This document shows positions 11,913 through 57,955 of a DNA stretch of 64,000 bases, piece by piece; within the stretch, counting starts at the first letter, position 1, and each line of letters starts with the position of its first letter. A program made the translations under genes and the position numbers. Under the pieces are notes generated by a model, which did no database searches, was not told where the DNA came from, and was given only the letters and a program-made list of their open reading frames with translations. The DNA is from an uncultured Candidatus Saccharibacteria bacterium. Lineage in GTDB: Bacteria > Patescibacteriota > Minisyncoccia > Minisyncoccales > JANBVM01. Location: contig CAZEQH010000002.1 in NCBI GenBank assembly GCA_964514375.1, positions 3,742-67,741 on the forward strand, written 5' to 3'.

Positions 11913-13064
11913 TTAATTTTTGTCTAGTTTAATCATTATTTTTTCTTTTTCCGGTATTGATATCTTCATCCGGTTGACCATTCTTTTTAGGAAATTGATG
12001 GTTTTATCATAGGTTTCCCTGTCTACCGGATAAGGGGTTTCATCTTTTCCTCCGAGGGCAAAAGAATATCTGGCAGGGTCTTCATAGGAAGGTTCGGCTC
12101 CGTATATCACTTCCGATACCAAACTTAAAGCCCTGATGGTTTTGGGGCCGATGCCCCTCATGGCAAGAAGTTTTTCGTAGCTTTCAGGATTCTGCTGGCA
12201 GGCCTTCCATAGTATTCTCTGCAGATACTTACTCTTCGAGAAGTCTTCCAGCAGTACGGGATGCCAGAAAAATTCCTTTTTCTCCAAATTCAGCATGGTA
12301 AGCTGTCTGTTCTTGTGTTTTAGGCTCAGCATCTGGGATAAATCAGAAGAGTGTTTCCTCAAAAGACGAATGTCTTTCATAAGTGAGTTATAGTTTCCCT
12401 GAACCAGTTCCGTGCTTATCTTCTGATTTTCTTTACTCTGCCTGGCCGTAAGGTTTAATGTTGGTGCCGCTCCTTGTGAGGTAATTCCGGTGTGGGGTTC
12501 ACAGACCAGGTCACTTACTTTTTTAGAGTACCAGTGGTAGCGCCGGGCTGTCTGGTTGGCGGCATTCATTCCCTGTTGGATAACAGACCAGCTTCCGTTT
12601 CTTGAAAAGAAGAAGCTATGGTGATAAATTTGAAACCCATCCTGGACCAGGGCGCTGTCAACCTTAGCCGCCATTTTAGAATTGTAAACAAGATTATCAA
12701 CCTTTCCTTCGGGCAGGCTTAAAACTTGACCCCACTGTTCTATCTCTCCGGGGGTTTTTCGGGAAGTCTTACCCTTGCCTCCGCATATAAAGATACCTAA
12801 ATTCTTCTCTTTCCCTCTCACGGCTTCCTTTAAGGCTGCCGTAAGGATAGTAGTGAGCCCAGAAGCATTCCAGTCAAAAGCCAGCACGGTTCCCAGAGAT
12901 TGAAACCAAACCGGGTCGGCTATCCGGGCTACGAATTCATCTGCGCCGTACTCTTCCACTATCACCCTTATCATCTCTTGTCCCAGCCTTTTCATCCTGT
13001 TGAAAAGCCAGGCAGGGCACTTTCCGTAATCAAGGCCGAAGGTGGCTATCCCCCTGTGTATCAT
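11913..13064 (-). CDS. DUF763-family protein
   Basis: N-terminus GIATFGLDYGKCPAWLFNRMKRLGQEMIRVIVEEYG ... DPVWFQSLGTVLAFDWNASGLTT is characteristic of DUF763. Confidence 0.55.
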   Translation of the reverse strand: MIHRGIATFGLDYGKCPAWLFNRMKRLGQEMIRVIVEEYGADEFVARIADPVWFQSLGTVLAFDWNASGLTTILTAALKEAVRGKEKNLGIFICGGKGKTSRKTPGEIEQWGQVLSLPEGKVDNLVYNSKMAAKVDSALVQDGFQIYHHSFFFSRNGSWSVIQQGMNAANQTARRYHWYSKKVSDLVCEPHTGITSQGAAPTLNLTARQSKENQKISTELVQGNYNSLMKDIRLLRKHSSDLSQMLSLKHKNRQLTMLNLEKKEFFWHPVLLEDFSKSKYLQRILWKACQQNPESYEKLLAMRGIGPKTIRALSLVSEVIYGAEPSYEDPARYSFALGGKDETPYPVDRETYDKTINFLKRMVNRMKISIPEKEKIMIKLDKN

Positions 13065-13652: not shown

Positions 13653-14252
13653 TTACTTATTCCCTTTCTCAAGATACAGCTGGTGGTATTCTTCGGCTCG
13701 ATAAAAGTCTGGGGCGGGTACTATCTCCGTTACTATGGGGTCCCTGAACCGGCCCGATTTCTCCAGTTCCTTTTTGGATTCTTCGGCCAGTCTCTTCTGT
13801 CCCTCGTTGTAGTAGAAAATGACCGAGCGGTACTGGCTGCCTACATCCGGACCCTGGCGGTTGGGCGTAGTGGGAATGTGGTTATTCCAGAAGACATCCA
13901 GTAGTTCACGGTAGGAAATGACCGTCGGGTCGAACCTGATGTGCACGGTTTCTGCATGCCCGGTATCACCGCCGCAAACCTGCTCGTAGCTGGGATTTTC
14001 CGGTCTGCCTCCCATATATCCCACCTCAGTAAATTCCACCCCCTTAACCTGTCTGAATGTTTCTTCCGCTCCCCAAAAACATCCCATGGCGAAGGCGGCC
14101 TCAGATAAATTCTTAGTATCTCTTTTTTGATTGTTCATATAATAAATGAAAGACAATCCTGCGATCAGAATTAAAAATATTAAGAGGATTATCTTTCTAT
14201 AATTGACTTTATGTTTTTCAGTCCCAGCTGATGACGAATTCATGACGATCAT
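13653..14252 (-). CDS. msrA: peptide methionine sulfoxide reductase MsrA (membrane-anchored form)
   Basis: Active-site GCFWG motif, EVGYMGG, C-terminal EYHQ. The N-terminal TM helix overlaps the upstream paralog by 35 nt; an alternative start at about 14138 removes the overlap. Confidence 0.85.
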   Translation of the reverse strand: MIVMNSSSAGTEKHKVNYRKIILLIFLILIAGLSFIYYMNNQKRDTKNLSEAAFAMGCFWGAEETFRQVKGVEFTEVGYMGGRPENPSYEQVCGGDTGHAETVHIRFDPTVISYRELLDVFWNNHIPTTPNRQGPDVGSQYRSVIFYYNEGQKRLAEESKKELEKSGRFRDPIVTEIVPAPDFYRAEEYHQLYLEKGNK

Positions 14253-14829
14253 CCCCTTTGAAGGTACATTTTATTTCTTTACATTCAACTTTCCTGGCTC
14301 CCATGGCAATCTTCACGAATCCGGAAAAAATACCTTCTATATAGGGACAGAAGACAGGGTCAACATCAAAACCTGTAAGGGTGGCGGTCAGGGTTTTCTT
14401 TTTTTCGTCTATCTTTTCAATATTCACCTTTCCTACGGTGACGAATTTATCCCAGAAGCTGGGCGCTTTATCAAAAAAAGTTTTCCTATCTATCAAGAAA
14501 GAACCTATAAAAAGCCTAAGTATGGCGGAAAACTTTGCCACGTTTCTACCCATATCTCTCATTTTATCATCAGACATATTCAGAGCCTTTTTGGCAGACA
14601 ACAGAAAGATAGCTCTAAGGCCGTTGGGATAAAACTCCATAGAGCTTATCTTTTCCAATTTCAAAGGGAAACCTAAGTCTTTCATTTCTTTTTCCATTTT
14701 TTCGATTCCTTCCCTTCCACTTTCTCTCATGATGAATTTGACGTCGGATTTCATTACTATTCCCCTTACCTTTCCCGGAGAATTTTCATATAATTTTTTG
14801 GCTTTTTCTTTTAAAATTATTTTTTCCAT
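14218..14829 (-). CDS. uncharacterized paralog family, member 4 of 9
   Basis: VRGIVMK, SGREGIEKME, MEFYP, C-terminal VECKEIKCTFKGDDRHEFVISWD. Confidence 0.7.
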   Translation of the reverse strand: MEKIILKEKAKKLYENSPGKVRGIVMKSDVKFIMRESGREGIEKMEKEMKDLGFPLKLEKISSMEFYPNGLRAIFLLSAKKALNMSDDKMRDMGRNVAKFSAILRLFIGSFLIDRKTFFDKAPSFWDKFVTVGKVNIEKIDEKKKTLTATLTGFDVDPVFCPYIEGIFSGFVKIAMGARKVECKEIKCTFKGDDRHEFVISWD

Positions 14830-14836
14830 AATTTTG

Positions 14837-15436
14837 TTACCATTTAATTAAAAATCTGTGGCAGTCCCCTCCTTTATGGATGCAGGTTATTTCCTCACAC
14901 GTCCCCTCGGATTTGATTATCATCTGGAGAGAGCTGAGGAGATAGCCCTTTAATATTTCGCAGTGGAGAGGATAAAAATAATAGTCGTCCAGCCTGAGTA
15001 TTATTTTGTGCTCTTCCGGAAGATATTGTTCAACGTTCAGGTTTCCAATAGAAAGATGTTTTCTCCAGAGTTTGGGAAGCTCTTTGAGAACCCTGTCTAT
15101 AGAGAAGAAATACTTAATGGCTATTCTTATGATCAGCGAAACCTTGGTGTGAAATTTGCCCATTTCTTGAAATTTTTCATTATCATAATGAAAAAGTCTT
15201 TGAATGGCCACCATCATAACTGCCAAGGTACCCAGGGGATAGAATTCCATAGGCCTCATTTTCGAAAACTTAAGAGGACAGCCCGCCTCGGCCATTGTTT
15301 TTTCCAGGAGCTTCAATCCCTCCTCCCCTTCTTCTTTTACAATAAAATCTGCATAACTCTTCATTCCTACCGCGCGTATTTCTCCCTTAAAATTCATTAG
15401 TCCAGCGGCTTCTTCCTTTGAAATTACCGTATTCAT
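14837..15436 (-). CDS. uncharacterized paralog family, member 5 of 9
   Basis: IRAVGMK, EGEEGLKLLE, MEFYPLG, C-terminal TCEEITCIHKGGDCHRFLIKW. Confidence 0.7.
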   Translation of the reverse strand: MNTVISKEEAAGLMNFKGEIRAVGMKSYADFIVKEEGEEGLKLLEKTMAEAGCPLKFSKMRPMEFYPLGTLAVMMVAIQRLFHYDNEKFQEMGKFHTKVSLIIRIAIKYFFSIDRVLKELPKLWRKHLSIGNLNVEQYLPEEHKIILRLDDYYFYPLHCEILKGYLLSSLQMIIKSEGTCEEITCIHKGGDCHRFLIKW

Positions 15437-24184: not shown

Positions 24185-24736
24185 CTATACCTCTCTGAAG
24201 TAAGCCTGTAAGGTCCTGTTTGAATTCATAACAATGGGGATTGGGTTGTCGTCTCCCGTGACGTTGCTGATGAACCAGTGTTCAAATACCCAAAAAGCAT
24301 TGGATATAGCCGTTACATACACGATGGTTCTGCTTCGGTATATGTGTACTCCTTCGCCAGGATCAGTACCGCCGCCGCCGAAAATCTCTATGGTAAGTGA
24401 GTAATTGAAGAATGGACCTTCTTCTACAAAGTTGGCTATGATATCTTTATCTCCGTCGATGATTATCGTTATCTTAGTTTCATTACCGCTAGCGTCTCCA
24501 TGCCATCCTTCCAACATAGAGCCTGGGTATGAATAAGCATTTATCTCCAGTTTGGTTCCTTCCGGATAGTAATGGCTGCCCGGGTCCGGGTCCGTTGTTC
24601 CCTCCCCCGTAATGCTTATGCTTAAACAGTAATTTACAGGAGATTTTGAATTTAGAATCAGCACAGGTATTAACACGCTTAAGGTTGCTATGGTTGCTAT
24701 AACTGTTATCAGGATAATTTTATTGAATCTTTTCAT
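24185..24736 (-). CDS. secreted protein with two divergent InlB B-repeat (Listeria-Bacteroides repeat) domains
   Basis: N-terminal TM/signal; two copies of Y.L.I.G.GTTDP.PG.H.Y.EGT.L...A.P..G..F..W.G (YCLSISITGEGTTDPDPGSHYY... and YSLTIEIFGGGGTDPGEGVHIY...). Confidence 0.6.
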   Translation of the reverse strand: MKRFNKIILITVIATIATLSVLIPVLILNSKSPVNYCLSISITGEGTTDPDPGSHYYPEGTKLEINAYSYPGSMLEGWHGDASGNETKITIIIDGDKDIIANFVEEGPFFNYSLTIEIFGGGGTDPGEGVHIYRSRTIVYVTAISNAFWVFEHWFISNVTGDDNPIPIVMNSNRTLQAYFREV

Positions 24737-24912
24737 CCTTTTTTACCTCTTTTAAATTATTAAGTTTCTGCCTGTATTTAAAAATAATTATGACATTTTG
24801 TCAATAGCTTATCGCGGCAGAGCAAAAAATAAAAAGATAAGAATTACTTCTTATCTAATTAAGAAAAAAATATTTAGGATTATTTTTATCACATTTTCCA
24901 ATTCCTTCCTCT

Positions 24913-26493
24913 TCATAGGTCGCGGTCGTAATCATCGTCATAAGGCCTTCTTGTCACTGGTTCATTACTTATTGGTCTTCTGTATTGTGTCCCACCTTCT
25001 TGCCTTCTTTTCCTCGGGTAGGGACCGCGGTCGTAAATCTCCTCGTGATAGTTTCTCGTTGCACTTTCATGTTGCCTTTCTCTTTCCTCTTCCCGTTCCA
25101 TCTCTCGCTTTTTCTTTTTTCTCTTTTTTACACTCTTTTTGATTCTCTTAGGAATCACTTTTACAAAGGATATATAGGCCGCTATTATAATTACTATAAT
25201 GATTACAATAAGAATCAATAAGGGAGCAAAAACGACCAACAAAGACAAAAGGTCATTCATAAAGTCTTCAAAGGTGTAAGGATCTAATGGCGGCTCAACA
25301 TCATAATCTCCTACTATGCTGCCGTCCCACACCCAGTCCCCCATAATTAGATAGGGGTCGTTGAGTATGGTGCGGCTCAATTCAGCTGTAGTCGGTATAC
25401 TTGCCACGAATTCTACGTCTACGTCAAACGTCCACCTTAGCGCAAAATTACATACATGAGCTCCGACAACTCTTTTTGGAGCGACGCTGGATGCGGGACC
25501 GTAGACGGCATCCAAATTGCCGGCCCAGAACCCCCACTCCCAGAACACCACGCCTGCTTTTCTGATGTGATTATACTGGACATACTCATAGGTTTCAGGC
25601 GCCAGTAAAGTGTATAAGTCAAAGGTGAACATCCTGTTATTCGCTGGGTTGGGATTATTAAATCCCGTTCCTATTTGACTGCCTCCGACTTTCGATTGAG
25701 TTATGGTTGCTCCTCTTTGAATGGGACCCGCCTGCCATCCGAGGCCGTAATCATTGTAATAATTGATAATCTTTTGTTGGTCAGAATCAAAGTCGTCCAT
25801 TTCTACCAGGCTTACCTTTCCCTCATCTATATTGGAAAGATTTTCGAAAGTATCATTGTAAACTCCTATTGGCGAGGAAGTTAAATTTGCCACAGTAACT
25901 TTTAATACATCTCCCTTGATATAAGGAGTATGATAAGTTGCATTTCCAAGAGTCACCGAACCATTCATGCCTGTAAGTTCCTTTATCCCTACCGTTACAG
26001 GTAAGAAAACCGAATATTCGAACAGGTTTACGTTGCCTCCGTAATCAAGCTGATTCCATTCCGCAGAATAAGTTTCCATAAAGTTTCCATACATCTTCGC
26101 CCTTATTATTGCTAAAAAAAGTTCCTTCACGTGCTTATCTAAATTTAAATTCGGGAATTCATTCCTGATGCCCACAATTGTATGGGCAGTTATAGAAAAT
26201 TCATATTTTGCTCTGGCTTTATAAAGAATAGCATCGTCGGTCACACTGAATACCCCCAGATTCTCGAACTCCGTGAAACTTTCGCCTCCCGAAGAAAAAA
26301 CAATCTTATTCCTCGGCAATTCTCCTGTGTCGACATCACCCAGACCAACATACAGCCAATTCGCTTTAATTATGGATGTATTGTCATCGAATGAAGCCTT
26401 CGGTTTTTGACTCTTTGATGTGGACTTCGCGCTGTCAATAGGTACGCCTACGCCTGGCAGTAGAAAAGCGATAAAAACAATTCCGATAATCAA
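24913..26493 (-). CDS. large type-I membrane/surface protein with a highly charged cytoplasmic tail (TTG start)
   Basis: Signal-like N-terminus, a ~430-aa ectodomain with no known motif, one C-terminal TM (LLILIVIIIVIIIAAYISFV), then a KKRKKKKREMEREEERERQ... tail. The first codon is TTG with AGGAAAAG upstream. Confidence 0.5.
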   Translation of the reverse strand: MIIGIVFIAFLLPGVGVPIDSAKSTSKSQKPKASFDDNTSIIKANWLYVGLGDVDTGELPRNKIVFSSGGESFTEFENLGVFSVTDDAILYKARAKYEFSITAHTIVGIRNEFPNLNLDKHVKELFLAIIRAKMYGNFMETYSAEWNQLDYGGNVNLFEYSVFLPVTVGIKELTGMNGSVTLGNATYHTPYIKGDVLKVTVANLTSSPIGVYNDTFENLSNIDEGKVSLVEMDDFDSDQQKIINYYNDYGLGWQAGPIQRGATITQSKVGGSQIGTGFNNPNPANNRMFTFDLYTLLAPETYEYVQYNHIRKAGVVFWEWGFWAGNLDAVYGPASSVAPKRVVGAHVCNFALRWTFDVDVEFVASIPTTAELSRTILNDPYLIMGDWVWDGSIVGDYDVEPPLDPYTFEDFMNDLLSLLVVFAPLLILIVIIIVIIIAAYISFVKVIPKRIKKSVKKRKKKKREMEREEERERQHESATRNYHEEIYDRGPYPRKRRQEGGTQYRRPISNEPVTRRPYDDDYDRDL

Positions 26494-26667
26494 GACTAAC
26501 GATCTTTTCCTGTGAATTTTTTATCACCTCTTTTTTTTGAAAGATCTAGTGTGCATTTCTACACGCTGCAAGCCCTGTTTAACACTTCATAAGTGTTTTT
26601 GTCAAGAGTTCTCAAATAAAAACTCACTTTTGAAAAAGTGAGAAAAAAAATTTTTAAAAAAATCAGA

Positions 26668-27714
26668 TTAAACCATAGAGAAAAAAGCTTCTGCTTTAGT
26701 GTTCGAATCAATAGTAATGGTAATCGTCCTGTCGAAGTACGCTCTGCCGTTCACGCCCCAATATTGGAATTTTGCACCCATAAAGTCTATCGCGCTGAGA
26801 GTCATCGTAGTACCCTTAAGTATATCGTAGTACGTGCCCGCCGGAGGGGCAGTTATTCCTCCGCCGTATGTCTTAATGGTCAGAGTATACTTTGGGATAG
26901 GAACAAAGTGAACGGTTACAGTTTTGTCGCCGTCTATTACGGTAGTTACCGGGTTAGCAGACGAAGAGATGTCTCCGCTGAAATGATCAAATCTGTAGCC
27001 ATACAATGGAATGGCTGCCAGTGTAATTTCCGTGCTGTAGATGAACTCATAAGTACCGCTTCCTCCTAAATTAGTAATTCCCTCTCCATCTATTATAATC
27101 GTGAGTGAGCATCTATTCGTAAAGTGTGCCGTAAAATTCATGTCTTCAAACACGAACGTGCTTACTGTTTTTTCGGTGCTGTTAATAGGCCCTGTCCAGC
27201 ATTGGAATTTCCATCCTGGAACCGATTCTACCGCAGTCAGATTGAGCAGAGTGCCGGCTGCATACAAATGATCTCCTACACCAGGTATCACTGTCCCCTG
27301 ACCATCAACGTTTATACTCAACGTATAATTTGTAATGGGTATCGTTCTGAAGTAAGCAGTAACGTCAGCGTCATAGCTCATATTTAAGAAAAGTATCCTT
27401 TCCTTAGCTGTGCCTCCTTTGATGTTACCGGCCCAGTGGTCGAACATCGAACCGGGATAGGGCTGGGCTATTAGAACGGTGGTCTCGTCTTTCTTGCGCT
27501 GATATTCGCCTGGAACGGGGCTGGTGGTTCCGTTCCCCACAGCGTTTATGGTTAACTTAACATTAACGGGAATAGGATTGTACGGGTTGTTACCGCCGTT
27601 TCCAAGGTTGGGATTTAACTTAATAGCGGCAAATATCCCCACAGACAGAGAAGCACCCACAATTAGAATTATTACTAAGGCAGTAATAATCACTTTCTTT
27701 TTCTTCTTTTCCAT
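26668..27714 (-). CDS. secreted protein with four divergent InlB B-repeat domains
   Basis: N-terminal MEKKKKKVIITALVIILIVGA signal/TM; four copies of the Y.L.I...G.G......G.Y.....T..L.A.P..G..F..W.G repeat. Confidence 0.6.
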   Translation of the reverse strand: MEKKKKKVIITALVIILIVGASLSVGIFAAIKLNPNLGNGGNNPYNPIPVNVKLTINAVGNGTTSPVPGEYQRKKDETTVLIAQPYPGSMFDHWAGNIKGGTAKERILFLNMSYDADVTAYFRTIPITNYTLSINVDGQGTVIPGVGDHLYAAGTLLNLTAVESVPGWKFQCWTGPINSTEKTVSTFVFEDMNFTAHFTNRCSLTIIIDGEGITNLGGSGTYEFIYSTEITLAAIPLYGYRFDHFSGDISSSANPVTTVIDGDKTVTVHFVPIPKYTLTIKTYGGGITAPPAGTYYDILKGTTMTLSAIDFMGAKFQYWGVNGRAYFDRTITITIDSNTKAEAFFSMV

Positions 27715-27870: not shown

Positions 27871-28131
27871 TTAAAGAAACGCTAATCCTACATAGGTAAA
27901 GAAAGCGGCTACGGCTGTGGCTAATGGTGTAACAACGAAAATTAAAAGAAACTTGGTATGTCTTTTAAATTCTTTTATCTCTTCATCCTTTAAATCCCAT
28001 GATGCTTTCATTATTATCTCTTTCGCATCCAATTCGCTTTGGCGTTTCATTTCTTCGTATTTAGACTTTATTTTATCTTTATACGCTCCTCTTACTGGAA
28101 AAAATTCTTTTTGCTGTTTTGCTTCTACCAT
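27871..28131 (-). CDS. small tail-anchored membrane protein, hypothetical
   Basis: 86 aa, charged N-terminal 60 aa, then a single C-terminal TM helix. Confidence 0.4.
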   Translation of the reverse strand: MVEAKQQKEFFPVRGAYKDKIKSKYEEMKRQSELDAKEIIMKASWDLKDEEIKEFKRHTKFLLIFVVTPLATAVAAFFTYVGLAFL

Positions 28132-28341
28132 TTAGTTCTCACCTTTTTCCAATCTGTTTTTAAATTTCTATGCTTTTCTAAATCTTTTTGATTAATTTGT
28201 CAACACCAAACCCAAGCTGAACGCTTGGGTTAATAATCTCCAATAACTTAAAGCCGATAACTCATAACTGGAAATTACGGAGTAATTTCTGCTGGGGGTC
28301 TATTTCATTTGACAAAAAGTTCTTTCTAGGACTTTCGGAAG

Positions 28342-28602
28342 TTAAGTATTAAAGGTGTCTTTCAGCATTGCCCTTAAGGTGGTTTTCCCTTTGGTTGTCT
28401 TTAAATACCGTTCCCTTCTCCTTGTATCTTCTTTCGAGATATAAGCTTCATAGAAGATAAGATTAAATGGAGCGTAATGTTTAGTTGATAATTCTTCCTT
28501 ATTGTTATGTTCTTTGAAACGTCTTTTTAAATCGCGGGTTACACCAACATAAACGAAATCTTTATTCAAACTTTTTAAAACATAAACGTAATGAAATTTC
28601 AT
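28342..28602 (-). CDS. GIY-YIG nuclease family protein (small, UPF0213/YhbQ-like)
   Basis: YVYVLKS ... FVYVGVTRDLKRRFKEHN: GIY-YIG motif with the conserved Arg and Glu/Asn. Start trimmed to MKFHYVYVL. Confidence 0.75.
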   Translation of the reverse strand: MKFHYVYVLKSLNKDFVYVGVTRDLKRRFKEHNNKEELSTKHYAPFNLIFYEAYISKEDTRRRERYLKTTKGKTTLRAMLKDTFNT

Positions 28603-28692
28603 AAAAATAGAGAGGGGACGCACCATTCGGTGCATCCCTCCCTCTCATACGATTCGGTCTTGCTTTGCGCAAGCCCTGTACCGTATGGTATG

Positions 28693-28766
28693 GGGTTGCC
28701 GGGCTAGGGCTCGAACCTAGATTGAGGGCTTCAAAGGCCCCTGTCCTACCATTAGACGACCCGGCA
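28693..28766 (-). tRNA. tRNA-Gln (anticodon TTG)
   Basis: Reverse complement folds as a cloverleaf: acceptor TGCCGGG/CCCGGCA, D-arm GTCT-AATGGTA-GGAC, anticodon stem GGGGC/GCCCT with loop CTTTGAA (U33, TTG, A37), T-arm CTAGG-TTCGAGC-CCTAG, discriminator A. No encoded CCA. Confidence 0.7.
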
Positions 28767-28966
28767 AGATATATAACTACCATTAGACCCGCCTCGCCGA
28801 TGACTCGGCGAGTCGAGGCGGGCGACCCGGCATTTTTTATGGATTCCTTCTATCCATCCCTGAATCTTTCTATTAAGGTTTACACTCTTTTTCACGATTA
28901 TCCTTAATAGTCCATAATAATCATTCTCCGGTATTTTTTCTATAAGGCTATATCTTTATAAATAAA

Positions 28967-30088
28967 TTAATCTTGCTCGCAGATTTCCACTATCGCCAGT
29001 TCCAGGGGTAGTTGGGGAATGGGAGAGCGCCGCATTTTATTATGGGCTTCCAGGAAAGTATTAACTATATCTTTGAGCTCTTCCTCTTTGAAACAGGAAG
29101 CCTGCTTGATGAGCGTCTGGACTTCTTCCTTAGTAAGGCCTGAAAGATATCTCTGGAGTTCCTGCTCTTTGCTCTTCTCTCCTATTATTTTGACAATAAG
29201 GGTTTTTCTCAGGTAGCTGATAAGTGTTTTGGAAAACTCTTCCATGTCCATCCCTTTCTGTCCGATATTATTGAGATAATCAATAGCTTTAAGAGTCTCC
29301 TTATCGCACAAAAACCCCGTTAATTTACTCACCATTTCCACCTCTACCAGACCTAGCAGGTCTTTGATATCTTCTGCCTTTATTTCTTTTTTGGAATCCT
29401 TATAAAAAGTGGATATCTGGTTGAGCAGGCTTTCCGCATCCCTGATGGCTCCTCCCGCATTGATGGCGATGAGTTCCTCGGCAGCCTTTTCAATCTTTAT
29501 CTTTTCCTTTTTGACCACGGCTTCTATCTTCTCCATAATCTCGGGCACCGTGAGCTTTCGAAAGTCAAATCTCTGACAGCGCGAAATAATAGTGGGAATC
29601 ATCTTGTGTATCTCCGTGGTGGCCAGAATAAAAATAGCATGCTCAGGAGGTTCTTCCAAGGTTTTTAATAAGGCATTAGATGCCTCCTTGGTCAATTGAT
29701 GGGATTCGTCGATGATAAACACCTTATATTTGGATTTGGTGGGAGAAAACATAATTCCATCTTTCAGTTCTCTGATGTCGTCGATTCCCCGGTGGGAAGC
29801 TGCATCTATCTCCAGGAGGTCTATGGCGTTGCCTTCGGTTATTTCCAGACAGGAAGAGCATTTGTTGCACGGCTCATAATCACCTTCTTTCCTGTTTTTA
29901 CAATTGACGGATTTAGCCAGGAGTCTGGCCAGAGTGGTTTTGCCCGTGCCTCTGGGTCCGGAAAACAAATAGGCGTGGGAGACCATTCCCCTGGCAATAG
30001 CGTTGGTGAGTGTTTTAACGATGTGCTCCTGACCGATAAATTCTGAAAAACTCTGCGGCCGGTATTTCCGGTACAATACCAATGACAT
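28967..30088 (-). CDS. dnaX: DNA polymerase III subunit gamma/tau (short form)
   Basis: YLFSGPRGTGKTT (Walker A), zinc module CNKCSSC, IIDESHQL (Walker B), sensor ATTE. Confidence 0.9.
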   Translation of the reverse strand: MSLVLYRKYRPQSFSEFIGQEHIVKTLTNAIARGMVSHAYLFSGPRGTGKTTLARLLAKSVNCKNRKEGDYEPCNKCSSCLEITEGNAIDLLEIDAASHRGIDDIRELKDGIMFSPTKSKYKVFIIDESHQLTKEASNALLKTLEEPPEHAIFILATTEIHKMIPTIISRCQRFDFRKLTVPEIMEKIEAVVKKEKIKIEKAAEELIAINAGGAIRDAESLLNQISTFYKDSKKEIKAEDIKDLLGLVEVEMVSKLTGFLCDKETLKAIDYLNNIGQKGMDMEEFSKTLISYLRKTLIVKIIGEKSKEQELQRYLSGLTKEEVQTLIKQASCFKEEELKDIVNTFLEAHNKMRRSPIPQLPLELAIVEICEQD

Positions 30089-30702
30089 TACTTTTTGAAT
30101 ACAATGAATTTATAGCCCAGGAAATTCCAGGCAAAACCCGCAAAAGCTGCCGCTATTCCCCCCACGCTGGCCCAAACCTGAGGAGGCAATCCGAATTGGG
30201 GGCCGACAACGTTAACTACCAGAGAGGCCACTCCCACATTCACTCCCAGACCTATAAAGGTAACAATAAAAAATTGGGCGAATTCTTTTTCTACGCCTGC
30301 CATCTCTTTCTGTTCAAAAGCCAGGAATTTGTTGGCCCAGTATTTGGCAAAGGTGGCCACTAAAAAAGAGATACCCTTGGAGACGCTGAATACAAGCCCC
30401 TCTGCTTTCTGGAAGATAGTTATTAATAAATTGAGGACTCCCAAATCCAGAAGCGTAGCTAGAGCTCCTATTAGCAGAAACTTGGCCAACTGGAATACAA
30501 AGGGGAATTTCTTCCCTATTAATTCCGCTATCCATAGGCAGAAAACCGCCAGTACCGGTAGTGTCAGGAATAAAATCCAGGTTAAAAGCCCTAGGCTTAC
30601 ACCCATTACCTGATTGACGCCGGCACTTTTGATGAGGCTCATCATAAACCAGGCTAGTACCAGGCCCGTTACGATGGCCAAAATAGTGTCTTCTTTCTTC
30701 AT
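30088..30702 (-). CDS. GtrA-family membrane protein (extended N-terminus)
   Basis: 6 TM; the C-terminal 130 aa carry GtrA hallmarks (KFLLIGALATLLDLGVLNLL ... AWNFLGYKFIVFKK). Confidence 0.5.
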   Translation of the reverse strand: MKKEDTILAIVTGLVLAWFMMSLIKSAGVNQVMGVSLGLLTWILFLTLPVLAVFCLWIAELIGKKFPFVFQLAKFLLIGALATLLDLGVLNLLITIFQKAEGLVFSVSKGISFLVATFAKYWANKFLAFEQKEMAGVEKEFAQFFIVTFIGLGVNVGVASLVVNVVGPQFGLPPQVWASVGGIAAAFAGFAWNFLGYKFIVFKK

Positions 30703-30938: not shown

Positions 30939-31772
30939 ATGGATATTCTTAACACTATAGGGCATACCCCATTAATAGAAGTGAAAGGCATTTACGCGAA
31001 ATTGGAAACCGTTAACCCCTCGGGTTCCATTAAAGACAGGATGGCCAAGTTTATGGTAGAAAAGGCGGAAAAAGAAGGAAAACTGAAACCGGGTTTTTCC
31101 ATCATTGAAGCCACTTCGGGAAATACGGGAGTAAGTTTCTCACTCGTTTCTGCTGTTAAGGGATATGGGTTTACGGCCGTCATACATGAAAACACAAGCT
31201 TCGGGAAAAAGAAATTGATGAAGCTTTTGGGAGCAGAATTAGTATTGGTGCCCGATAAGTGGGGATTTCCGGAACTCATAAGGAAAACGGAAGAGTTATC
31301 AAAACAGCGCAGCAAAATCTGGCTGCCCAGGCAATTTGTCAACCCGGATAACGTAGAAGCGCACAGATTGGGTTTGGGACGTGAGATAGCAGGACAAATA
31401 CAGAGAATAGATGCATTTGTGGCAGGTATAGGCACGGGAGGCACCTTAATGGGTGTAGCCAAGGCATTGAAGGGGAAATTTCCGAAAATAAAAATTTTCG
31501 GTGTGGAGCCTGCGGAATCCCATCATCAGATAGAGGGGATTTCAGACGGCATCGTGCCCGGGATACTGGAGAGAGATTTGATTGATGGAATGATAAAAAT
31601 TAGAAGTATTGACGCCTTGAAAACTGCGAGAGAACTGGCTCAAAAGTACGGTCTCTTGGTGGGCATTTCCTCTGCCGCAAACTTCCTTGCTGCCCAGAAA
31701 CTTAAAACTAAATACAGGAACGTGGTAACTGTCTTTCCTGACAGGGCAGAACGTTACATGGATAAAATTTAA
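30939..31772 (+). CDS. cysteine synthase / O-acetylserine sulfhydrylase family PLP enzyme (short, 277 aa)
   Basis: PLP-lysine motif GSIKDR; SGNTGVS glycine loop; fold-type II PLP family. Confidence 0.8.
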   Translation: MDILNTIGHTPLIEVKGIYAKLETVNPSGSIKDRMAKFMVEKAEKEGKLKPGFSIIEATSGNTGVSFSLVSAVKGYGFTAVIHENTSFGKKKLMKLLGAELVLVPDKWGFPELIRKTEELSKQRSKIWLPRQFVNPDNVEAHRLGLGREIAGQIQRIDAFVAGIGTGGTLMGVAKALKGKFPKIKIFGVEPAESHHQIEGISDGIVPGILERDLIDGMIKIRSIDALKTARELAQKYGLLVGISSAANFLAAQKLKTKYRNVVTVFPDRAERYMDKI

Positions 31773-31795
31773 GCTCTAAAAAAAAGAGAGCAATA

Positions 31796-32731
31796 TTAAT
31801 TGCTCATGGTGATATAAGGAATAAGTTTTTCTATTTCTTTTTTCCGTGTCCTCAGGGTTACTTCCGTAATATTGGTAAGTTTGGCTATTTCTGCCTGAGT
31901 CCTCTTATGGTGATTACTCTCGCATATCAGATAGACGAGCCCTGCCAGGACTCCTCTCCTGTCTTTTCCGACAAAATTGCCGTTTGCCATTACTTTTTCA
32001 TAGGCACCAAAAATAAGTATTTCAAGGCTTATTGGAAGCTTAAGGGCTGTTGTAACTTCATCAATGTATCTCCTGATTTTTCTGTCTTCTCTGGCTTTGA
32101 AAAATTTCTGAATTTCTTTTGACGCAGTTAATCTAGTATAATCCTTAAAGAATCTTCTTGGATTGATTTTAGTAACTTCCGCCAATCTTTTGATGGGATT
32201 TGGATTTCCCCATCTAGTGTACACAAAGCAGAAAGCAGCAGCTGCCAGGTATAGGTAATTACTCCAAGCAATGCCGATCCTGATAGCCCTTTTGACGAGC
32301 CATAACATCTCTTTTTCCATAGCCTTCGTCACTACAAATTGTAAACGGGTTCTTGTTAATAACTGCTTTAAGCGTATTGTTACTATAGCTTTACGCCTTC
32401 GATCCTTCGGGTCAAACCATTTTTCCGCTTTCCTTAATCTATACATATTTGAGGAAGCTTCAGGTTTTATTTGTCTGCCTGAGTCATCTTTGTTGTTACT
32501 TCTTATTCTGGTGCCCCTTCCGAATGAAAACTTTCCGGTCACAACCCGTGGGTACAGAGGGTCGTCGTCGGGAAAATAATTCACGCCTCCCCCTGTATCC
32601 ATGCAGTGGTGTTCTATAACGATGCCGCATTTTCTGTAAATAACCTCTCCTTTGTCATAAATAATATCTTTGCTGAAACATTCCGGACAAGAATATTCAT
32701 TATTATAATATTCAGTCATTGTCTGATTCAC
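31796..32731 (-). CDS. TFIIB/TFB-family transcription initiation factor-like protein
   Basis: N-terminal zinc ribbon CPECFSKDIIYDKGEVIYRKCGIVIE (third Cys replaced by Tyr; HHC follows). B-reader/linker with MYRLRK. Two cyclin-like repeats, the second reading GKDRRGVLAGLVYLICESNHHKRTQAEIAKLTNITEVTLRTRKKEIEKL, near-diagnostic for the TFIIB C-terminal repeat. Confidence 0.8.
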   Translation of the reverse strand: MNQTMTEYYNNEYSCPECFSKDIIYDKGEVIYRKCGIVIEHHCMDTGGGVNYFPDDDPLYPRVVTGKFSFGRGTRIRSNNKDDSGRQIKPEASSNMYRLRKAEKWFDPKDRRRKAIVTIRLKQLLTRTRLQFVVTKAMEKEMLWLVKRAIRIGIAWSNYLYLAAAAFCFVYTRWGNPNPIKRLAEVTKINPRRFFKDYTRLTASKEIQKFFKAREDRKIRRYIDEVTTALKLPISLEILIFGAYEKVMANGNFVGKDRRGVLAGLVYLICESNHHKRTQAEIAKLTNITEVTLRTRKKEIEKLIPYITMSN

Positions 32732-32818
32732 CCCTTTTTAAACGAGCTTTATATATTCAAAATCTTATCAGAATATCACCTTTTGTCAAAATAGCTTTAA
32801 AAAATAAAATTTATTATA

Positions 32819-34231
32819 ATGAATAAAACCATGCTCAAACTGTACAATACTTTGACCAGGAAAAAAGAGGTTTTCAAACCTAAAAGAAAAGAGAAGGTTA
32901 ATATTTTTGTTTGCGGGCCGACCGTTTATGATTTTTCCCATATCGGTCATGCGAGGACCTATGTTTCTTTTGATGTAATCGTCAAATACCTACGGGAAAA
33001 AGGGTATGATGTTTTTTATTTACAGAACATAACAGATATTGATGATAAAGTTATAAAAAGAGCAAACGAAAAGAAGATTTCCTGGAAAAAGCTCGCCAGA
33101 AATTTTGAAAAAGAATATCTTAAAGACATGAAAACCCTTAAGATTAATAGCGTTACCAAATATGCCAGAGCCACGGACCATATTAAAGAAATTATTTCCC
33201 AGGTGAAGAGGTTAAAAAAGAAAGGTTTCGGCTATGAGACAAATAATGGCATTTATTATGATATAGGCCGCTTTAAAGGTTACGGAAAGCTCTCCAGGAG
33301 AACGGTGGTAATGGCAGAAGACGCTCTCTCAAGAATAGATGAAGGAGGAGAGAAAAGAAATGCCGGTGACTTTTGCTTGTGGAAGTTTTCTAAGAAAGAT
33401 GAAGCTAAATGGGAAAGCCCCTGGGGACCGGGAAGACCGGGCTGGCATATCGAGGACACGGCAATTACCGAGAAATACTTCGGACCTCAATACGATATTC
33501 ACGGCGGGGCCAGGGATTTGATTTTTCCTCACCATGAAGCTGAAATCAGCCAAATGGAAGCTGTTTCAGGAAAATCCCCTCTGGTCAGATACTGGCTTCA
33601 TACCGGTTTCCTGACAATAGAAGGCCAGAAGATGTCAAAATCTTTGGGTAATTTCATTACGATAAGAAAACTTCTTGAAAAGGTATCTCCCAGGGTATTG
33701 AGGCTTCTGCTGATAAAAACACATTACCGTTCTCCCATCGATTTCAGCGACAAGCTGCTCTTACAAAGCAAAAGAGAGATTGAAAGAATGGATGAATTCT
33801 TAAGGAAACTGAAGAAGCTAAACAAAAAGGGCCTGGAGAGAAAATCAAAGCTGAAATTAGCCGAGAGAGTGGAAAAGGAATTTGAGCAGTCCATGGAGGA
33901 TGATTTTAACACTCCTTCGGCTGTTTCCGTAATTTTCAAGCTGATAGCAGAAGGAAATAAACTTTTGAACAAGAGGAGATTAACCTCAAAGGAGGCCAGG
34001 GAGATTTTAGTTTTTTTCAAGAAGATAGATCGAGTTTTCAGTCTGGATTTAACAAAAGTTGAAAAAGTAAAAATTCCTCAGAAAATAAGGAATTTGGTTA
34101 GACAAAGAGAGCAATTTAGAAAATATTCTCGATGGGAGAAAGCCGACGATATTAGAAAAGAAATTGAGAAATCCGGTTTCTTTGTTGAGGATACACAGGA
34201 AGGACCCAAAGTTATCAGAAAGGAAAAATAA
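32819..34231 (+). CDS. cysS: cysteine--tRNA ligase
   Basis: HIGH motif (FSHIGHARTY), KMSKS motif (KMSKSLGN), anticodon-binding C-terminus. Confidence 0.9.
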   Translation: MNKTMLKLYNTLTRKKEVFKPKRKEKVNIFVCGPTVYDFSHIGHARTYVSFDVIVKYLREKGYDVFYLQNITDIDDKVIKRANEKKISWKKLARNFEKEYLKDMKTLKINSVTKYARATDHIKEIISQVKRLKKKGFGYETNNGIYYDIGRFKGYGKLSRRTVVMAEDALSRIDEGGEKRNAGDFCLWKFSKKDEAKWESPWGPGRPGWHIEDTAITEKYFGPQYDIHGGARDLIFPHHEAEISQMEAVSGKSPLVRYWLHTGFLTIEGQKMSKSLGNFITIRKLLEKVSPRVLRLLLIKTHYRSPIDFSDKLLLQSKREIERMDEFLRKLKKLNKKGLERKSKLKLAERVEKEFEQSMEDDFNTPSAVSVIFKLIAEGNKLLNKRRLTSKEAREILVFFKKIDRVFSLDLTKVEKVKIPQKIRNLVRQREQFRKYSRWEKADDIRKEIEKSGFFVEDTQEGPKVIRKEK

Positions 34232-37429: not shown

Positions 37430-37602
37430 AAACACGTATAAGCGGATCTACGCAGAAAGAGCAGAAGCTGATTTACGCAGATATTGTCCGCAGAACTACG
37501 CGGAAACATAAACACCCCTTGATTATAAGGAGTGCTTTTTTATTCGCGCTTATCCGCTTCTACGAAGTTAATCTGCGTGTATCAGCGCCCGTCAATCCGC
37601 TT

Positions 37603-37920
37603 CTATACACTCTTTATCTCTTCAATCTGAACTTCTGTAAATTGCTGCCGGTGGCCTTTCTTTACCTTATACCTTTTACTGGCCCGGTATTTGAAGGCGA
37701 TAACCTTTTTGCCTTTCCCGTGGCGGATTACTTTTCCAGTTACCTTGGCTTCCTTAACTATGGGAGTGCCGATTTCCAGCTTCTTTCCCTTCTCCAAAAG
37801 CAGGATCTGATCGAAAGCCACCCTCTCTCCCTCTTTCTTGTCCAGTTTTTCTACTTTCAATTTATCTCCTTCCTTGACAAGATACTGTTTTCCTCCCGTT
37901 TTTATTGCTGCTAGGCTCAT
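37603..37920 (-). CDS. rplU: 50S ribosomal protein L21 (bL21)
   Basis: AIIKTGGKQYLVKEGDKLKVEKL ... KVIAFKYRASKRYKVKKGHRQ. Confidence 0.9.
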   Translation of the reverse strand: MSLAAIKTGGKQYLVKEGDKLKVEKLDKKEGERVAFDQILLLEKGKKLEIGTPIVKEAKVTGKVIRHGKGKKVIAFKYRASKRYKVKKGHRQQFTEVQIEEIKSV

Positions 37921-57947: not shown

Positions 57948-57955
57948 AATTTTAT

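What the first reader, a model, noticed from the sequence alone, without database searches (positions are those of the whole stretch)
31796..32731. TFIIB/TFB-family transcription factor homolog in a bacterial gene context, between a cysK-like gene and cysS
The 311-aa product has the full TFIIB architecture. It starts with an N-terminal zinc ribbon (CPECFSKDIIYDKGEVIYRKCGIVIE; cf. archaeal TFB CPxCxSxxxIYDxxxGExVCxxCGxVIEE). The B-reader/linker carries the near-invariant MYRLRK. Two cyclin-like repeats follow, and the second contains GKDRRGVLAGLVYLICESNHHKRTQAEIAKLTNITEVTLRTRKKEIEKL, which matches the TFIIB C-terminal repeat signature (G[RK]sP..vAAAaiY.As....ekRTQkEIa.v.gVteVTiRnrYKEL). Every neighbour is bacterial-type: cysS and dnaB on one side, dnaX on the other, and greA, efp, bL21 and mraZ elsewhere. 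No TBP or archaeal-type RNAP is visible in the window, so this is an orphan basal-factor homolog in a bacterium. The third zinc-ribbon cysteine is a Tyr (YRKC) with a downstream HHC, so the ribbon is remodelled. It is bracketed by cysteine metabolism genes (cysK-like and cysS), which hints at local co-regulation. Candidate explanations are archaeal-to-bacterial transfer, a repurposed DNA-binding or anti-sigma-like regulator, or assembly chimerism.
Basis: partly seen in the sequence, partly recalled or inferred. Interest (0 to 1): 0.9.

Follow-up and report, generated by a model that had tools for sequence, protein, structure and literature searches.

The report
Archaeal-type TFB gene fixed in CPR bacteria
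A small clade of ultra-small (Patescibacteria/CPR, Nealsonbacteria-like) bacteria stably carries a full-length but very fast-evolving copy of TFB, the archaeal/eukaryotic transcription start factor that bacteria are not supposed to have; what it does there is unknown.

Summary
Window 31796-32719 (- strand, 307 aa from the ATG) encodes a real TFB/TFIIB homolog. It has a zinc ribbon, a linker with RLRK, two cyclin folds and an intact BRE-type helix-turn-helix (Pfam, NCBIfam, PDB, AlphaFold2 and Foldseek agree).

It is not a chimera or contaminant. At least 14 further orthologs, down to about 24% identity, occupy the same slot in other assemblies: divergent from cysS and upstream of gtrA-dnaX. 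Two are complete ~0.65-0.69 Mb genomes, and one of these is labelled Candidatus Nealsonbacteria. GC content matches each host genome. Every locus examined keeps a sigma70-type promoter (TTTGACAAAA -35) and a Shine-Dalgarno leader.

The protein evolves far faster than its neighbours: 43% identity where DnaB is 93%, and dN/dS of 0.4-0.6 against 0.1-0.2. The ribbon cysteines and the HTH DNA-contact residues are nevertheless retained. The EWRxF reader motif and first-repeat residues have decayed. No TBP, TFE or archaeal RNAP is present in the window.

My best reading is a domesticated, neofunctionalised TFB-derived DNA- and possibly RNAP-binding regulator (inferred, about 0.5). The main rival is a TFB mimic aimed at archaeal hosts (about 0.2). 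I found no published description.

The parts
31796..32719 (-). CDS of the TFB-like protein (307 aa from ATG 32719; the mechanical ORF extends to GTG 32731)
32606..32698 (-). N-terminal zinc ribbon (residues ~8-38; C11, C14, Y28 in place of the third Cys, C31; H38-H39-C40 follow)
   Evidence: 1pft E 2.5e-5 for the single protein, 4.7e-9 for the clade profile
32348..32605 (-). Reader/linker region (residues ~39-124). Residues 40-69 are predicted disordered and lack the EWRxF reader motif. The conserved D78/G81/P86 and the RLRK (B-linker-type) motif are retained.
32120..32347 (-). First cyclin-fold repeat (residues ~125-200). It is the least conserved domain; the RGR and ACR..PR motifs of archaeal TFBs are replaced (AWSN; TRWGNPNPIK).
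31820..32119 (-). Second cyclin-fold repeat (residues ~201-300), which matches Pfam TFIIB
31820..31909 (-). Helix-turn-helix of repeat 2 (RTQAEIAKLTNITEVTLRTRKKEI). T288, R290, R292 and K294 are fixed or nearly fixed in both the bacterial clade and archaeal TFBs.
   Evidence: residue correspondence to human TFIIB V283/R286/R290 is from my own knowledge of 1C9B
32762..32789 (-). Sigma70-type promoter of the TFB-like gene: TTGACA (32789-32784), 16 nt, TG-extended TAAGAT (32767-32762)
   Evidence: TTTGACAAAA followed by a -10-like hexamer is conserved in all 12 orthologous loci read
32781..32791 (.). 11-nt palindrome TTTTGaCAAAA, which supplies a -35-like hexamer on both strands (TTGACA for the TFB-like gene, TTGTCA for divergent cysS)
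32728..32742 (-). Conserved leader element TTTAAAAA (32742-32735) followed by the Shine-Dalgarno GGGGTGA (32734-32728)
   Evidence: not enriched elsewhere in the window
31778..31805 (-). Intrinsic-terminator-like hairpin GAGCAATTAATATTGCTC plus a T run, overlapping the stop codon
32819..34231 (+). cysS, divergently transcribed (likely true start ATG 32831, MLKLYNTL...). It is the one universally conserved neighbour on this side.
30939..31772 (+). PALP (cysK-like) gene, convergent with the TFB-like gene; present only in some lineages
28967..30702 (-). gtrA-family membrane protein gene (30088-30702) and dnaX (28967-30088), the conserved neighbours on the downstream side

Best explanation
What it is (shown): a full-length homolog of archaeal transcription factor B. 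It entered an ancestor of a small Patescibacteria/CPR clade from an archaeon and has since been inherited vertically at one chromosomal slot. The clade has genomes of about 0.65-0.69 Mb, and one complete genome and one homolog carry the NCBI label Candidatus Nealsonbacteria. The slot is cysS <-> TFB-like -> (PALP) -> gtrA -> dnaX. The gene has its own sigma70-type promoter, Shine-Dalgarno leader and terminator.

How it most likely works (inferred): it acts inside the bacterium as a neofunctionalised DNA-binding transcription regulator. It binds DNA through the conserved helix-turn-helix of the second cyclin repeat, the element that reads the BRE in archaea. It probably still uses its zinc ribbon and RLRK linker to touch RNA polymerase. 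It has dropped the TBP-dependent and start-site-reading parts of the ancestral job: the first-repeat contact residues and the EWRxF reader motif have decayed. In this window's lineage the ribbon itself is degenerating (third Cys is Tyr). Its target sites and its partner are unknown.
For: Identity:
- Pfam, NCBIfam and PDB sequence matches.
- AlphaFold2 model at pLDDT 84, with exclusively TFIIB/TFB/Brf top fold hits.

Vertical inheritance in bacteria:
- The same gene order occurs around orthologs of 24-43% identity in L002/L009, L003/L011, L004, L005, L006-8, L010, L012, L014, L015, L018, L019 and L021.
- These include the complete genomes CP179889.1 (labelled Ca. Nealsonbacteria) and CP179891.1 (unlabelled).
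- The GC content of the gene tracks each genome, 31-41%.
- The 13 syntenic orthologs form one clade in the best NJ tree. Bootstrap support is 34% for all 13, 85% for the derived eight, and 99.5% for the window with P0002 and P0152.

Expression signals:
- TTGACA-16-TG-TAAGAT promoter and a terminator.
- TTTGACAAAA, a -10-like hexamer and the TTTAAAAA-GGTGA leader are conserved in every locus read.

Selection:
- The ORF is intact at 279-313 aa in all lineages.
- NG86 dN/dS is 0.39-0.60, below 1 but 3-5 times that of the neighbours.
- The positions kept in at least 77% of the bacterial orthologs are almost all positions that are also fixed in archaeal TFBs: the four ribbon Cys, G32, D41, D78, A161, G251/K252, Y263, Q275, T288, R290, R292 and K294.
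- The ribbon and the HTH are the two best-conserved segments (0.39 and 0.44 mean pairwise identity, against 0.24-0.30 elsewhere).
- The derived subclade has gained motifs absent from archaeal TFBs (FCFxYK..GNPNPIK, GxGSYIDxxNxDSSG), which argues for new constraints rather than decay.

Loss of ancestral partners:
- No TBP, TFE or archaeal RNAP in the 64-kb window.
- None among the Pfam hits listed for genes called in the fetched loci.
- None in the unannotated ORFs of L006.

The domain roles of TFB are taken from PMC7289017.
Against: - No experiment or expression data exist; the mechanism is inference from conservation.
- A regulator that contacts conserved bacterial RNAP and fixed DNA sites would not be expected to diverge to 24-43% identity while CysS, DnaB and DnaX stay at 77-93%. 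That pattern is more typical of conflict or host-interaction proteins.
- TFB on its own binds DNA poorly without TBP (my own knowledge), and no TBP substitute is identified.
- No candidate operator motif is enriched in the window.
- Whole genomes could not be searched, so the absence of TBP is shown only for the window and flanking loci.
- The window protein and P0002 have each lost a different ribbon cysteine, so the RNAP-contact idea is weakest for this particular lineage.
Confidence: 0.5

Rival explanations
1. Cross-domain effector or mimic. The bacterium lives attached to an archaeon and delivers the TFB-like protein into the host. There the ribbon binds host RNAP and the cyclin/HTH core binds host promoters. 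Because the reader motif is missing, the protein competes with host TFB and blocks or redirects host transcription. An arms race with host factors drives the extreme divergence.
For: - Ca. Nealsonbacteria and related Paceibacteria are reported as episymbionts or parasites of Methanothrix and Methanospirillum (PMC13293708; bioRxiv 10.1101/2022.04.20.488981; PMC9763046).
- One complete genome carrying the gene, and the homolog P0151, are labelled Ca. Nealsonbacteria.
- The whole TFB architecture is retained in a genome region with no TBP or archaeal RNAP.
- The residues kept are the universal TFB core, ribbon plus HTH.
- Hyper-divergence and elevated dN/dS, highest in the ribbon and linker (0.65-0.83) in the closest pair.
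- A tandem second copy exists in one lineage.
- There is precedent for parasites carrying TFB homologs: Sulfolobales virus YNP2 and SSRV1.
Against: - No signal peptide or other secretion signal is evident by inspection of the N-terminus; the protein starts directly with the ribbon (no predictor was run).
- No known route carries a cytoplasmic CPR protein into an archaeal cytoplasm.
- The gene sits among housekeeping genes at a fixed locus.
- First-repeat positions that pair with the TBP stirrup in TFIIB (KK, R of ACR; my own knowledge of 1VOL/1AIS) are not conserved across the clade.
- An archaeal host for this particular clade is not shown. It rests on a taxonomic label only.
- No segment shows dN/dS clearly above 1.
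Confidence: 0.2
2. Slowly decaying relic. This is an old horizontally acquired gene under weak residual constraint, with no specific function, kept by chance or for a generic property.
For: - Very fast protein evolution and dN/dS up to 0.6 for the whole gene and about 1.0 in some segments.
- Different ribbon cysteines are lost in the window protein and in P0002.
- First-repeat and reader motifs have decayed.
Against: - CPR genomes of ~0.65 Mb are highly streamlined, yet every lineage keeps an intact 279-313 aa ORF with promoter, SD and terminator.
- dN/dS is below 1 in every pair.
- Specific residues are fixed across the clade, and new clade-specific motifs have been gained.
- No frameshifted or truncated copy was seen, apart from a harmless 7-nt C-terminal indel in L001.
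Confidence: 0.1
3. Canonical TFB. The clade also carries TBP, and possibly other archaeal-type factors, elsewhere in the genome, and the protein works as in archaea.
For: - Whole genomes could not be searched.
- One lineage (L006/L008) carries an extra, much more archaeal-like copy, P0107. It is about 40% identical to archaeal TFBs, has the EWQAF reader motif, and both repeats pass Pfam.
Against: - Neither TBP, TFE nor archaeal RNAP was found in the window.
- None appears among the Pfam hits listed for genes called in the flanking loci or in the unannotated ORFs of L006.
- The context is plainly bacterial (greA, mraZ, dnaB, dnaX and so on).
- TFB needs an archaeal-type RNAP dock and clamp.
- The protein scores 96.7 bits against the 384-bit TFIIB subfamily cut-off.
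Confidence: 0.04
4. Assembly chimera or archaeal contaminant contig.
For: None beyond the oddity of the gene itself.
Against: - The same junctions are found in about 15 independent assemblies from NCBI, JGI, ENA and Logan, at 24-100% protein identity.
- GC content matches the flanks.
- The promoter is bacterial in type.
Confidence: 0.01

Closest known systems
Archaeal transcription factor B (TFB), e.g. Pyrococcus TFB (PDB 1AIS, 1D3U, 1PFT); eukaryotic TFIIB/Brf
   Same: - Same domain order and length (~300 aa): zinc ribbon, linker with RLRK(W), two cyclin folds and a C-terminal HTH with the same fixed T/R/R/K positions.
- Same fold.
   Different: - It is encoded in a bacterium with no TBP or archaeal RNAP in view.
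- It lacks the EWRxF reader motif, and the first-repeat motifs have decayed.
- The third ribbon Cys is lost in this lineage.
- It scores far below the NCBIfam TFIIB cut-off (96.7 against 384 bits).
- It is driven by a sigma70-type promoter.
- It evolves several-fold faster than archaeal TFBs spanning several phyla.
Non-canonical archaeal TFB paralogs (Sulfolobus TFB3; Pyrococcus furiosus TFB2, which lacks the conserved B-finger/reader sequence)
   Same: TFB3 is mentioned in PMC7289017. TFB2 is from my own knowledge (Micorescu et al. 2008).
   Different: Those paralogs still work with archaeal TBP, TFB and RNAP in an archaeal cell. Here no such partners are seen and the cell is bacterial.
TFB/TFIIB homologs of viruses (Sulfolobales virus YNP2, Saccharolobus solfataricus rod-shaped virus 1; giant-virus TFIIB)
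   Same: A TFB-family gene carried by a genome other than a free-living archaeon or eukaryote. The window protein is 25% identical over 91% of its length to the YNP2 protein, and there are fold matches.
   Different: The viral copies act in, or bring along, an archaeal or eukaryote-type transcription system. No bacteriophage carries one. The gene here is chromosomal and inherited vertically.
Bacterial sigma70-family factors (functional analogue only)
   Same: Sigma region 4 is an HTH that reads an upstream promoter element, and the sigma finger occupies the RNAP cleft much as the TFIIB reader/linker does (my own knowledge). The HTH gives weak Sigma70_r4 hits at E 0.11.
   Different: There is no significant sequence match to any sigma family. 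The fold is cyclin-like rather than sigma-like.

Membership tests
TFB/TFIIB family | N-terminal Cys4 zinc ribbon (PF08271) | tested here: inconclusive
   - Window protein: 15.4 bits against a cut-off of 29, and the third Cys is Tyr.
- However, 1pft matches at E 2.5e-5, and at 4.7e-9 with the clade profile. Ribbon strands are modelled.
- Orthologs P0010, P0095, P0060 and P0005 pass the cut-off.
TFB/TFIIB family | B-linker motif (RLRKW-type) between ribbon and core | tested here: met
   MYRLRK in the window protein. L95 is kept in 11 of 13 orthologs, and the alignment with archaeal TFBs gives the consensus RLRKW.
TFB/TFIIB family | B-reader (EWRxF-type helix and loop) | tested here: not met
   The motif is absent from all 12 syntenic orthologs aligned. 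It is present in the archaeal TFBs aligned with them and in paralog P0107. The region has pLDDT below 50. Caveat: many archaeal TFBs in the hit set also lack a literal EW motif.
TFB/TFIIB family | Two cyclin-fold (TFIIB) repeats | tested here: met
   - Repeat 2 passes Pfam (38.2 bits against 23.6).
- Repeat 1 is covered by the NCBIfam end-to-end alignment and the 1ais/1d3u alignment of residues 125-303.
- The helices are modelled at pLDDT above 90.
- Fold hits are TFIIB/TFB/Brf.
TFB/TFIIB family | BRE-reading helix-turn-helix in repeat 2 with conserved DNA-contact residues | tested here: met
   TEVTLRTRKKE in the window protein. T288 and R292 are fixed in 13 of 13 bacterial and 13 of 13 archaeal sequences. 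R290 is kept in 12 of 13 and K294 in 13 of 13 bacterial orthologs. The mapping to TFIIB V283/R286/R290 is from my own knowledge.
TFB/TFIIB family | Score above the curated subfamily threshold (NCBIfam NF001658, transcription initiation factor IIB) | tested here: not met
   96.7 bits against a cut-off of 384.
TFB/TFIIB family (functional membership: basal initiation factor) | Co-occurrence with TBP and an archaeal/eukaryote-type RNAP in the same genome | tested here: not met
   Neither was found in the 64-kb window, in the unannotated ORFs of L006, or among the Pfam hits listed for genes called in the other fetched loci. The complete genomes could not be searched with these tools, so this is shown only for the sequence in hand.
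TFB/TFIIB family (functional membership: basal initiation factor) | Supports TBP-dependent promoter-specific initiation | not testable with these tools
   Needs in-vitro transcription assays.
Sigma-70 family | Significant match to sigma regions 2 and 4 | tested here: not met
   Only Sigma70_r4 at E 0.11 and sigma70-ECF at E 1.1.

The most novel reading that the evidence does not exclude
The TFB-like protein is a cross-domain weapon or tool. An episymbiotic CPR bacterium makes a reader-less mimic of its archaeal host's basal transcription factor and delivers it into the host to jam or reprogram host transcription. Co-evolution with host TBP, RNAP and promoters drives the extreme sequence turnover, and occasionally fresh TFB genes are captured at the same locus (P0107).
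Probability: 0.2. Interest if true: 0.95.

Novelty: new variant of a known kind. Interest (0 to 1): 0.8.

Why it matters
TFB/TFIIB with TBP on one side, and sigma factors on the other, form one of the sharpest molecular divides between Archaea/Eukarya and Bacteria. A full-length TFB gene that has been kept for a long evolutionary time inside streamlined ~0.65 Mb bacterial genomes means one of two things. Either a TFB scaffold can be rewired to work with bacterial DNA and RNAP without TBP, or a bacterium uses a copy of its archaeal host's initiation factor against that host. Either result would be new biology.

The question is directly testable with recombinant protein, with in-vitro archaeal and bacterial transcription systems, and with the existing CPR-methanogen co-cultures. 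The gene is also a rare, clean marker of archaeon-to-CPR gene flow and of a hyper-variable locus in otherwise conserved genomes. Databases already auto-label some copies as 'TFIIB', but ten full-text searches found no paper that describes them.

Tried and rejected
- The word-indexed protein search with the single protein found only itself. The exhaustive HMMER search was needed.
With A2 it used a pattern specific to the derived subclade, so it found only 3 GTDB genomes and 1 metagenome contig. These numbers underestimate the distribution.
- The afdb50 fold library was unavailable.
- The listing of cluster members gave no taxonomy for the nearest non-clade hits, so the donor lineage is unresolved. 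The NJ trees are star-like.
- A literal EW-motif regex did not separate bacterial from archaeal sequences.
- The motif searches for the conserved TTTAAAAA leader and the TTTTGACAAAA palindrome showed no enrichment in the window, so no regulon could be proposed. My first impression that TTGACA is unique to this gene (1 of 78 sixty-nt upstream regions) is softened, which finds similar -35 boxes farther upstream of other genes.
- Segment-wise dN/dS was noisy (0.2-1.0) and never clearly above 1, so positive selection is not shown.
- In some pairs (L015-L019) dS is also raised for the TFB-like gene and cysS relative to the flanks. Part of the divergence there may reflect recombination with a diverged relative rather than rate alone. 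The L003-L010 pair does not have this problem.
- A compositional anomaly was rejected.
- Phage or plasmid carriage was rejected for phages; plasmids were not searched.
- The idea of CysK partner binding through a C-terminal Ile was considered and dropped, because the C-termini do not end in Ile.
- The papers on Nealsonbacteria and Patescibacteria-archaea symbiosis do not mention TFB. PMC10231131 is not held.
Full report
**1. The observation**

The ORF exists as described, at 31796..32731 on the minus strand, 311 aa from a GTG. An ATG at 32719 is preceded by GGGGTGA 8 nt upstream, and it is the start used in the JGI call of the identical protein P0001. The product is therefore most likely 307 aa.

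Sequence evidence for TFB/TFIIB:
- Pfam TFIIB repeat: residues 220-301, E 1.5e-9, above the gathering score.
- Pfam Zn_Ribbon_TF: sub-threshold at 15.4 against 29 bits.
- NCBIfam NF001658 'transcription initiation factor IIB': aligns over the entire protein (4-302 against 5-304 of 312) at E 1.3e-27, but far below the curated cut-off (96.7 against 384 bits).
- Best solved structures: the Pyrococcus TFB core (1ais/1d3u, residues 125-303, E 1.4e-10) and the TFB zinc ribbon (1pft, E 2.5e-5). A four-sequence profile of the clade gives 1.9e-24 and 4.7e-9.

Structural evidence: an AlphaFold2 model built on 50 homologs has mean pLDDT 84.4. It shows three ribbon strands, a disordered stretch at 40-69, and helices through residues 86-304 with block-mean pLDDT above 90 from about residue 110. 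Every Foldseek hit in the PDB down to E about 1e-3 is TFIIB, TFB or Brf, often aligned over about 310 columns. The low global TM-scores (about 0.3) go with rmsd of 9-20 Å and probably reflect a different relative placement of the domains in the free model.

**2. The context is bacterial and the contig is sound**

The immediate neighbours are dnaX, a GtrA-family gene, a PALP (cysK-like) gene, cysS, a GT4 glycosyltransferase, dnaB, recR and rmuC. I surveyed the remaining ORFs of the window against Pfam. Groups 11-14 were already covered; the ORFs at 27871-28907 and 37519-37914 were not scanned. The survey found efp, greA, xseA, mltG/yceG, MacB-type ABC transporter genes, mraZ, rsmH, a PBP transpeptidase, a ClpB-like ATPase and others. 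It found no TBP, TFE or archaeal RNAP subunit. GC content is even across the region.

A JGI contig, L001, reproduces both junctions at 99.6% identity. It may come from the same population as the window.

The decisive evidence is conserved gene order. Every relative whose contig I could read sits in the same slot, divergent from cysS and upstream of gtrA-dnaX:
- P0002, 43% identity (L002/L009).
- P0003 (L003/L011 and L004).
- P0004 (L005).
- P0005 (L006-8).
- P0007 (L012).
- P0008 (L014).
- P0010 (L015).
- P0095 (L018, complete genome CP179891.1, 694,748 bp).
- P0082 (L019).
- P0060 (L021).
- The copy in L010 (complete genome CP179889.1, 647,540 bp, labelled Candidatus Nealsonbacteria).

A control hit, P0079, lies in an archaeal-looking neighbourhood with a NiFe hydrogenase, AGOG and archaemetzincin. 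NCBI places Nealsonbacteria in the Parcubacteria/Patescibacteria group. Chimerism and contamination are therefore excluded.

**3. Evolutionary behaviour**

The gene's GC content follows that of each genome (31-41%), so it is an old resident. The protein diverges out of all proportion to its neighbours:
- Window against L002: TFB-like 43%, against DnaB 93%, DnaX 91%, RmuC 89%, GtrA 89%, GT4 87%, RecR 82% and CysS 77%.
- L003 against L019: 34%, against 84-90%.
- Window against L021: about 24%, while the CysS N-terminus is 82% identical.

In the least saturated pair (L003-L010, dS about 0.5), Nei-Gojobori dN/dS is 0.39 for the TFB-like gene and 0.09-0.19 for seven neighbours. Other pairs give 0.48-0.60. 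By segment the values range from 0.2 to 1.0. In the closest pair they are highest in the ribbon and linker, and they never clearly exceed 1. The gene is therefore under purifying selection that is much weaker, or more patchy, than on its neighbours.

Mean pairwise identity among 13 orthologs from this one narrow bacterial clade is 0.24-0.44 by domain. That is lower than among 13 archaeal TFBs, the named ones of which come from several phyla (0.35-0.54).

In an NJ tree the 13 syntenic orthologs form one clade with 34% bootstrap support. A derived group of eight gets 85%, and the window with P0002 and P0152 gets 99.5%. The donor lineage is unresolved. The nearest named outsiders are Asgard (Promethearchaeota, Helarchaeota), Bathyarchaeota and Nitrosopolaris TFBs at 22-30% identity.

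One lineage (L006/L008) has two tandem copies. The cysS-proximal copy, P0107, is about 40% identical to archaeal TFBs. It retains an EWQAF reader motif, both of its repeats pass Pfam, and it never groups with the others. It is either a second capture at the same site or a slowly evolving ancient paralog.

**4. What is kept and what is lost**

Almost all positions kept in at least 77% of the bacterial orthologs are positions also fixed in archaeal TFBs. These are the four ribbon cysteines, G32, D41, D78, A161, G251-K252, Y263, Q275, and T288/R290/R292/K294 in the recognition helix.

According to the archaeal literature, the ribbon recruits RNAP through its dock domain. The linker (B-reader plus B-linker) enters the RNAP cleft. 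The second cyclin fold reads the BRE (PMC7289017). By my own alignment to human TFIIB, T288, R290 and K294 correspond to T284, R286 and R290 of the BRE-contacting helix.

Several ancestral features are not kept across the clade:
- The EWRxF reader motif is absent from all 12 syntenic orthologs aligned, and that region is predicted disordered.
- The first-repeat RGR motif is not conserved.
- The ACR..PR motif is not conserved.
- The KK positions are not conserved. In TFIIB these contact DNA downstream of TATA and the TBP stirrup (my own knowledge).
- In most orthologs tested, only repeat 2 reaches Pfam significance.

The derived subgroup has gained its own conserved motifs (GxGSYIDxxNxDSSG, FCFxYK..GNPNPIK). 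In the window's subgroup the ribbon is eroding: the window protein has Tyr for the third Cys, P0002 has Tyr for the first Cys, and P0152 keeps all four.

**5. Expression signals**

Upstream of the window gene lies TTGACA-16 nt-TG-TAAGAT (10 of 12 matches to consensus). A hairpin plus T-run overlaps the stop codon.

All twelve orthologous intergenic regions I read keep the following elements:
- TTTGACAAAA.
- A -10-like hexamer about 16-18 nt downstream.
- A TTTAAAAA element.
- A GGTGA/GGAGG Shine-Dalgarno sequence.

The -35 box is the centre of an 11-nt palindrome, TTTTGaCAAAA, which also offers TTGTCA to the divergent cysS promoter. Many other genes in the window appear leaderless, with a -10 box directly before the start codon. 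The TFB-like gene is thus a monocistronic unit read by the bacterial sigma70 machinery. Neither motif is enriched elsewhere in the window.

**6. Mechanism**

Shown:
- Identity as a TFB homolog.
- Bacterial residence and vertical inheritance.
- Bacterial expression signals.
- Selective retention of ribbon and HTH, with decay of reader and first-repeat motifs.
- An exceptional evolutionary rate.
- No TBP or archaeal RNAP in the sequence at hand.

Inferred, and my preferred reading (about 0.5): the protein works inside the bacterium as a neofunctionalised DNA-binding regulator. It uses the repeat-2 HTH, and possibly the ribbon and linker to contact RNAP, and it is independent of TBP.

The main rival (about 0.2) is a host-directed TFB mimic. 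Nealsonbacteria and related Paceibacteria have been seen attached to Methanothrix and Methanospirillum. Archaeal viruses also carry TFB homologs. The divergence pattern looks like that of a conflict protein. Against this rival:
- There is no secretion signal evident by inspection, and no known delivery route.
- The TBP-contact positions are not conserved.
- An archaeal host for this clade rests only on a taxonomic label.

A functionless relic (about 0.1) fits poorly with intact ORFs, fixed residues and conserved expression signals in 0.65-Mb genomes. A canonical TFB with an unseen TBP (about 0.04) cannot be excluded without whole-genome searches.

**7. Comparison and novelty**

By sequence and fold this is a member of the TFB/TFIIB superfamily. 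By context, partners and the NCBIfam threshold it is not a canonical basal factor. The closest functional parallels are non-canonical archaeal paralogs (TFB3, Pfu TFB2) and viral TFB homologs.

Databases auto-annotate some copies ('TFIIB-type zinc ribbon-containing protein [Candidatus Nealsonbacteria bacterium]', 'transcription initiation factor TFIIB'). Ten full-text searches found no paper that describes a TFB in Patescibacteria/CPR or any other bacterium. I rate it a new variant of a known kind, with interest 0.8.

Noticed in passing
window 5329-5931, 9136-9732, 9782-10381, 14218-14829, 14837-15436, 57339-58082, 57956-58573, 58570-59178, 62153-62761 (all - strand): An expanded family of roughly nine paralogous ~200-aa proteins, often in tandem. 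They share an N-terminal '...KG.VRG...K...F(I)..EG.EG...LE..M...G.P......I..M.FYP' region. Most also give a C-terminal match to the V4R small-molecule-binding domain; E-values run from 2.7e-16 to 7.6e-4 across the concatenated ORF groups, and individual paralogs were not all resolved. That is a very high density for a 64-kb stretch of a tiny genome.
   Followed up: partly
window 11913-13064 (DUF763, E 2e-124), 759-1925 (myo-inositol-1-phosphate synthase), 27-416 (AMMECR1), 52611-53450 (ATP-cone + AF1548-like C-terminal domain): Several other genes of families that, from my own knowledge, are mostly or often archaeal lie in the same window. This hints that the TFB-like gene is not the only archaeal-type acquisition in this lineage.
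   Followed up: no
window 32819-34231 versus loci L002-L021: CysS falls into two deep types among these otherwise close genomes: 62-82% identity to the window's CysS in one group and 38-46% in the other, while DnaB and DnaX stay at 70-93%. In the L015-L019 pair both cysS and the TFB-like gene have higher dS than their flanks. This suggests xenologous replacement or recombination at this locus.
   Followed up: partly
L006 5181-7311 and L008 1590-3720: Two tandem TFB-like genes, each with the TTTGACAAAA promoter, separated by a 53-aa PALP fragment. The fragment is about 50% identical to the C-terminus of the intact PALP gene downstream. The cysS-proximal copy (P0107) is far more archaeal-like than the other (P0005).
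   Followed up: partly
L018 3456-5866 (CP179891.1): cysS is split into two ORFs by an inserted 301-aa ORF with a faint Phage_endo_I hit. This may be a homing-endonuclease or intein-type insertion, or a disrupted gene.
   Followed up: no
L019 1437-3215: dnaB carries an intein (Intein_splicing domain; 592 aa against about 451 aa elsewhere).
   Followed up: no
window 24185-27714 (- strand): Three consecutive genes. Two have repeated 'divergent InlB B-repeat' (Flg_new_2) domains (24185-24736 and 26668-27714). The 526-aa protein between them (24913-26493) has only a weak DUF4834 match. TTGACAAAA-type -35 boxes lie about 60-115 nt upstream of their starts. These are candidate cell-surface or host-attachment proteins.
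   Followed up: no
whole window: Many genes have a TATAAT/TAAAAT-like box only 5-12 nt before the start codon and no Shine-Dalgarno sequence, which suggests widespread leaderless mRNAs. The TFB-like gene is one of the few with a clear -35 box, a ~36-nt leader and a strong SD.
   Followed up: partly
L001 versus window 31031-32888: The JGI contig is identical to the window except for a 7-nt indel near the 3' end of the TFB-like gene. The indel changes the C-terminal tail from ...KLIPYITMSN to ...KLISP.
   Followed up: yes
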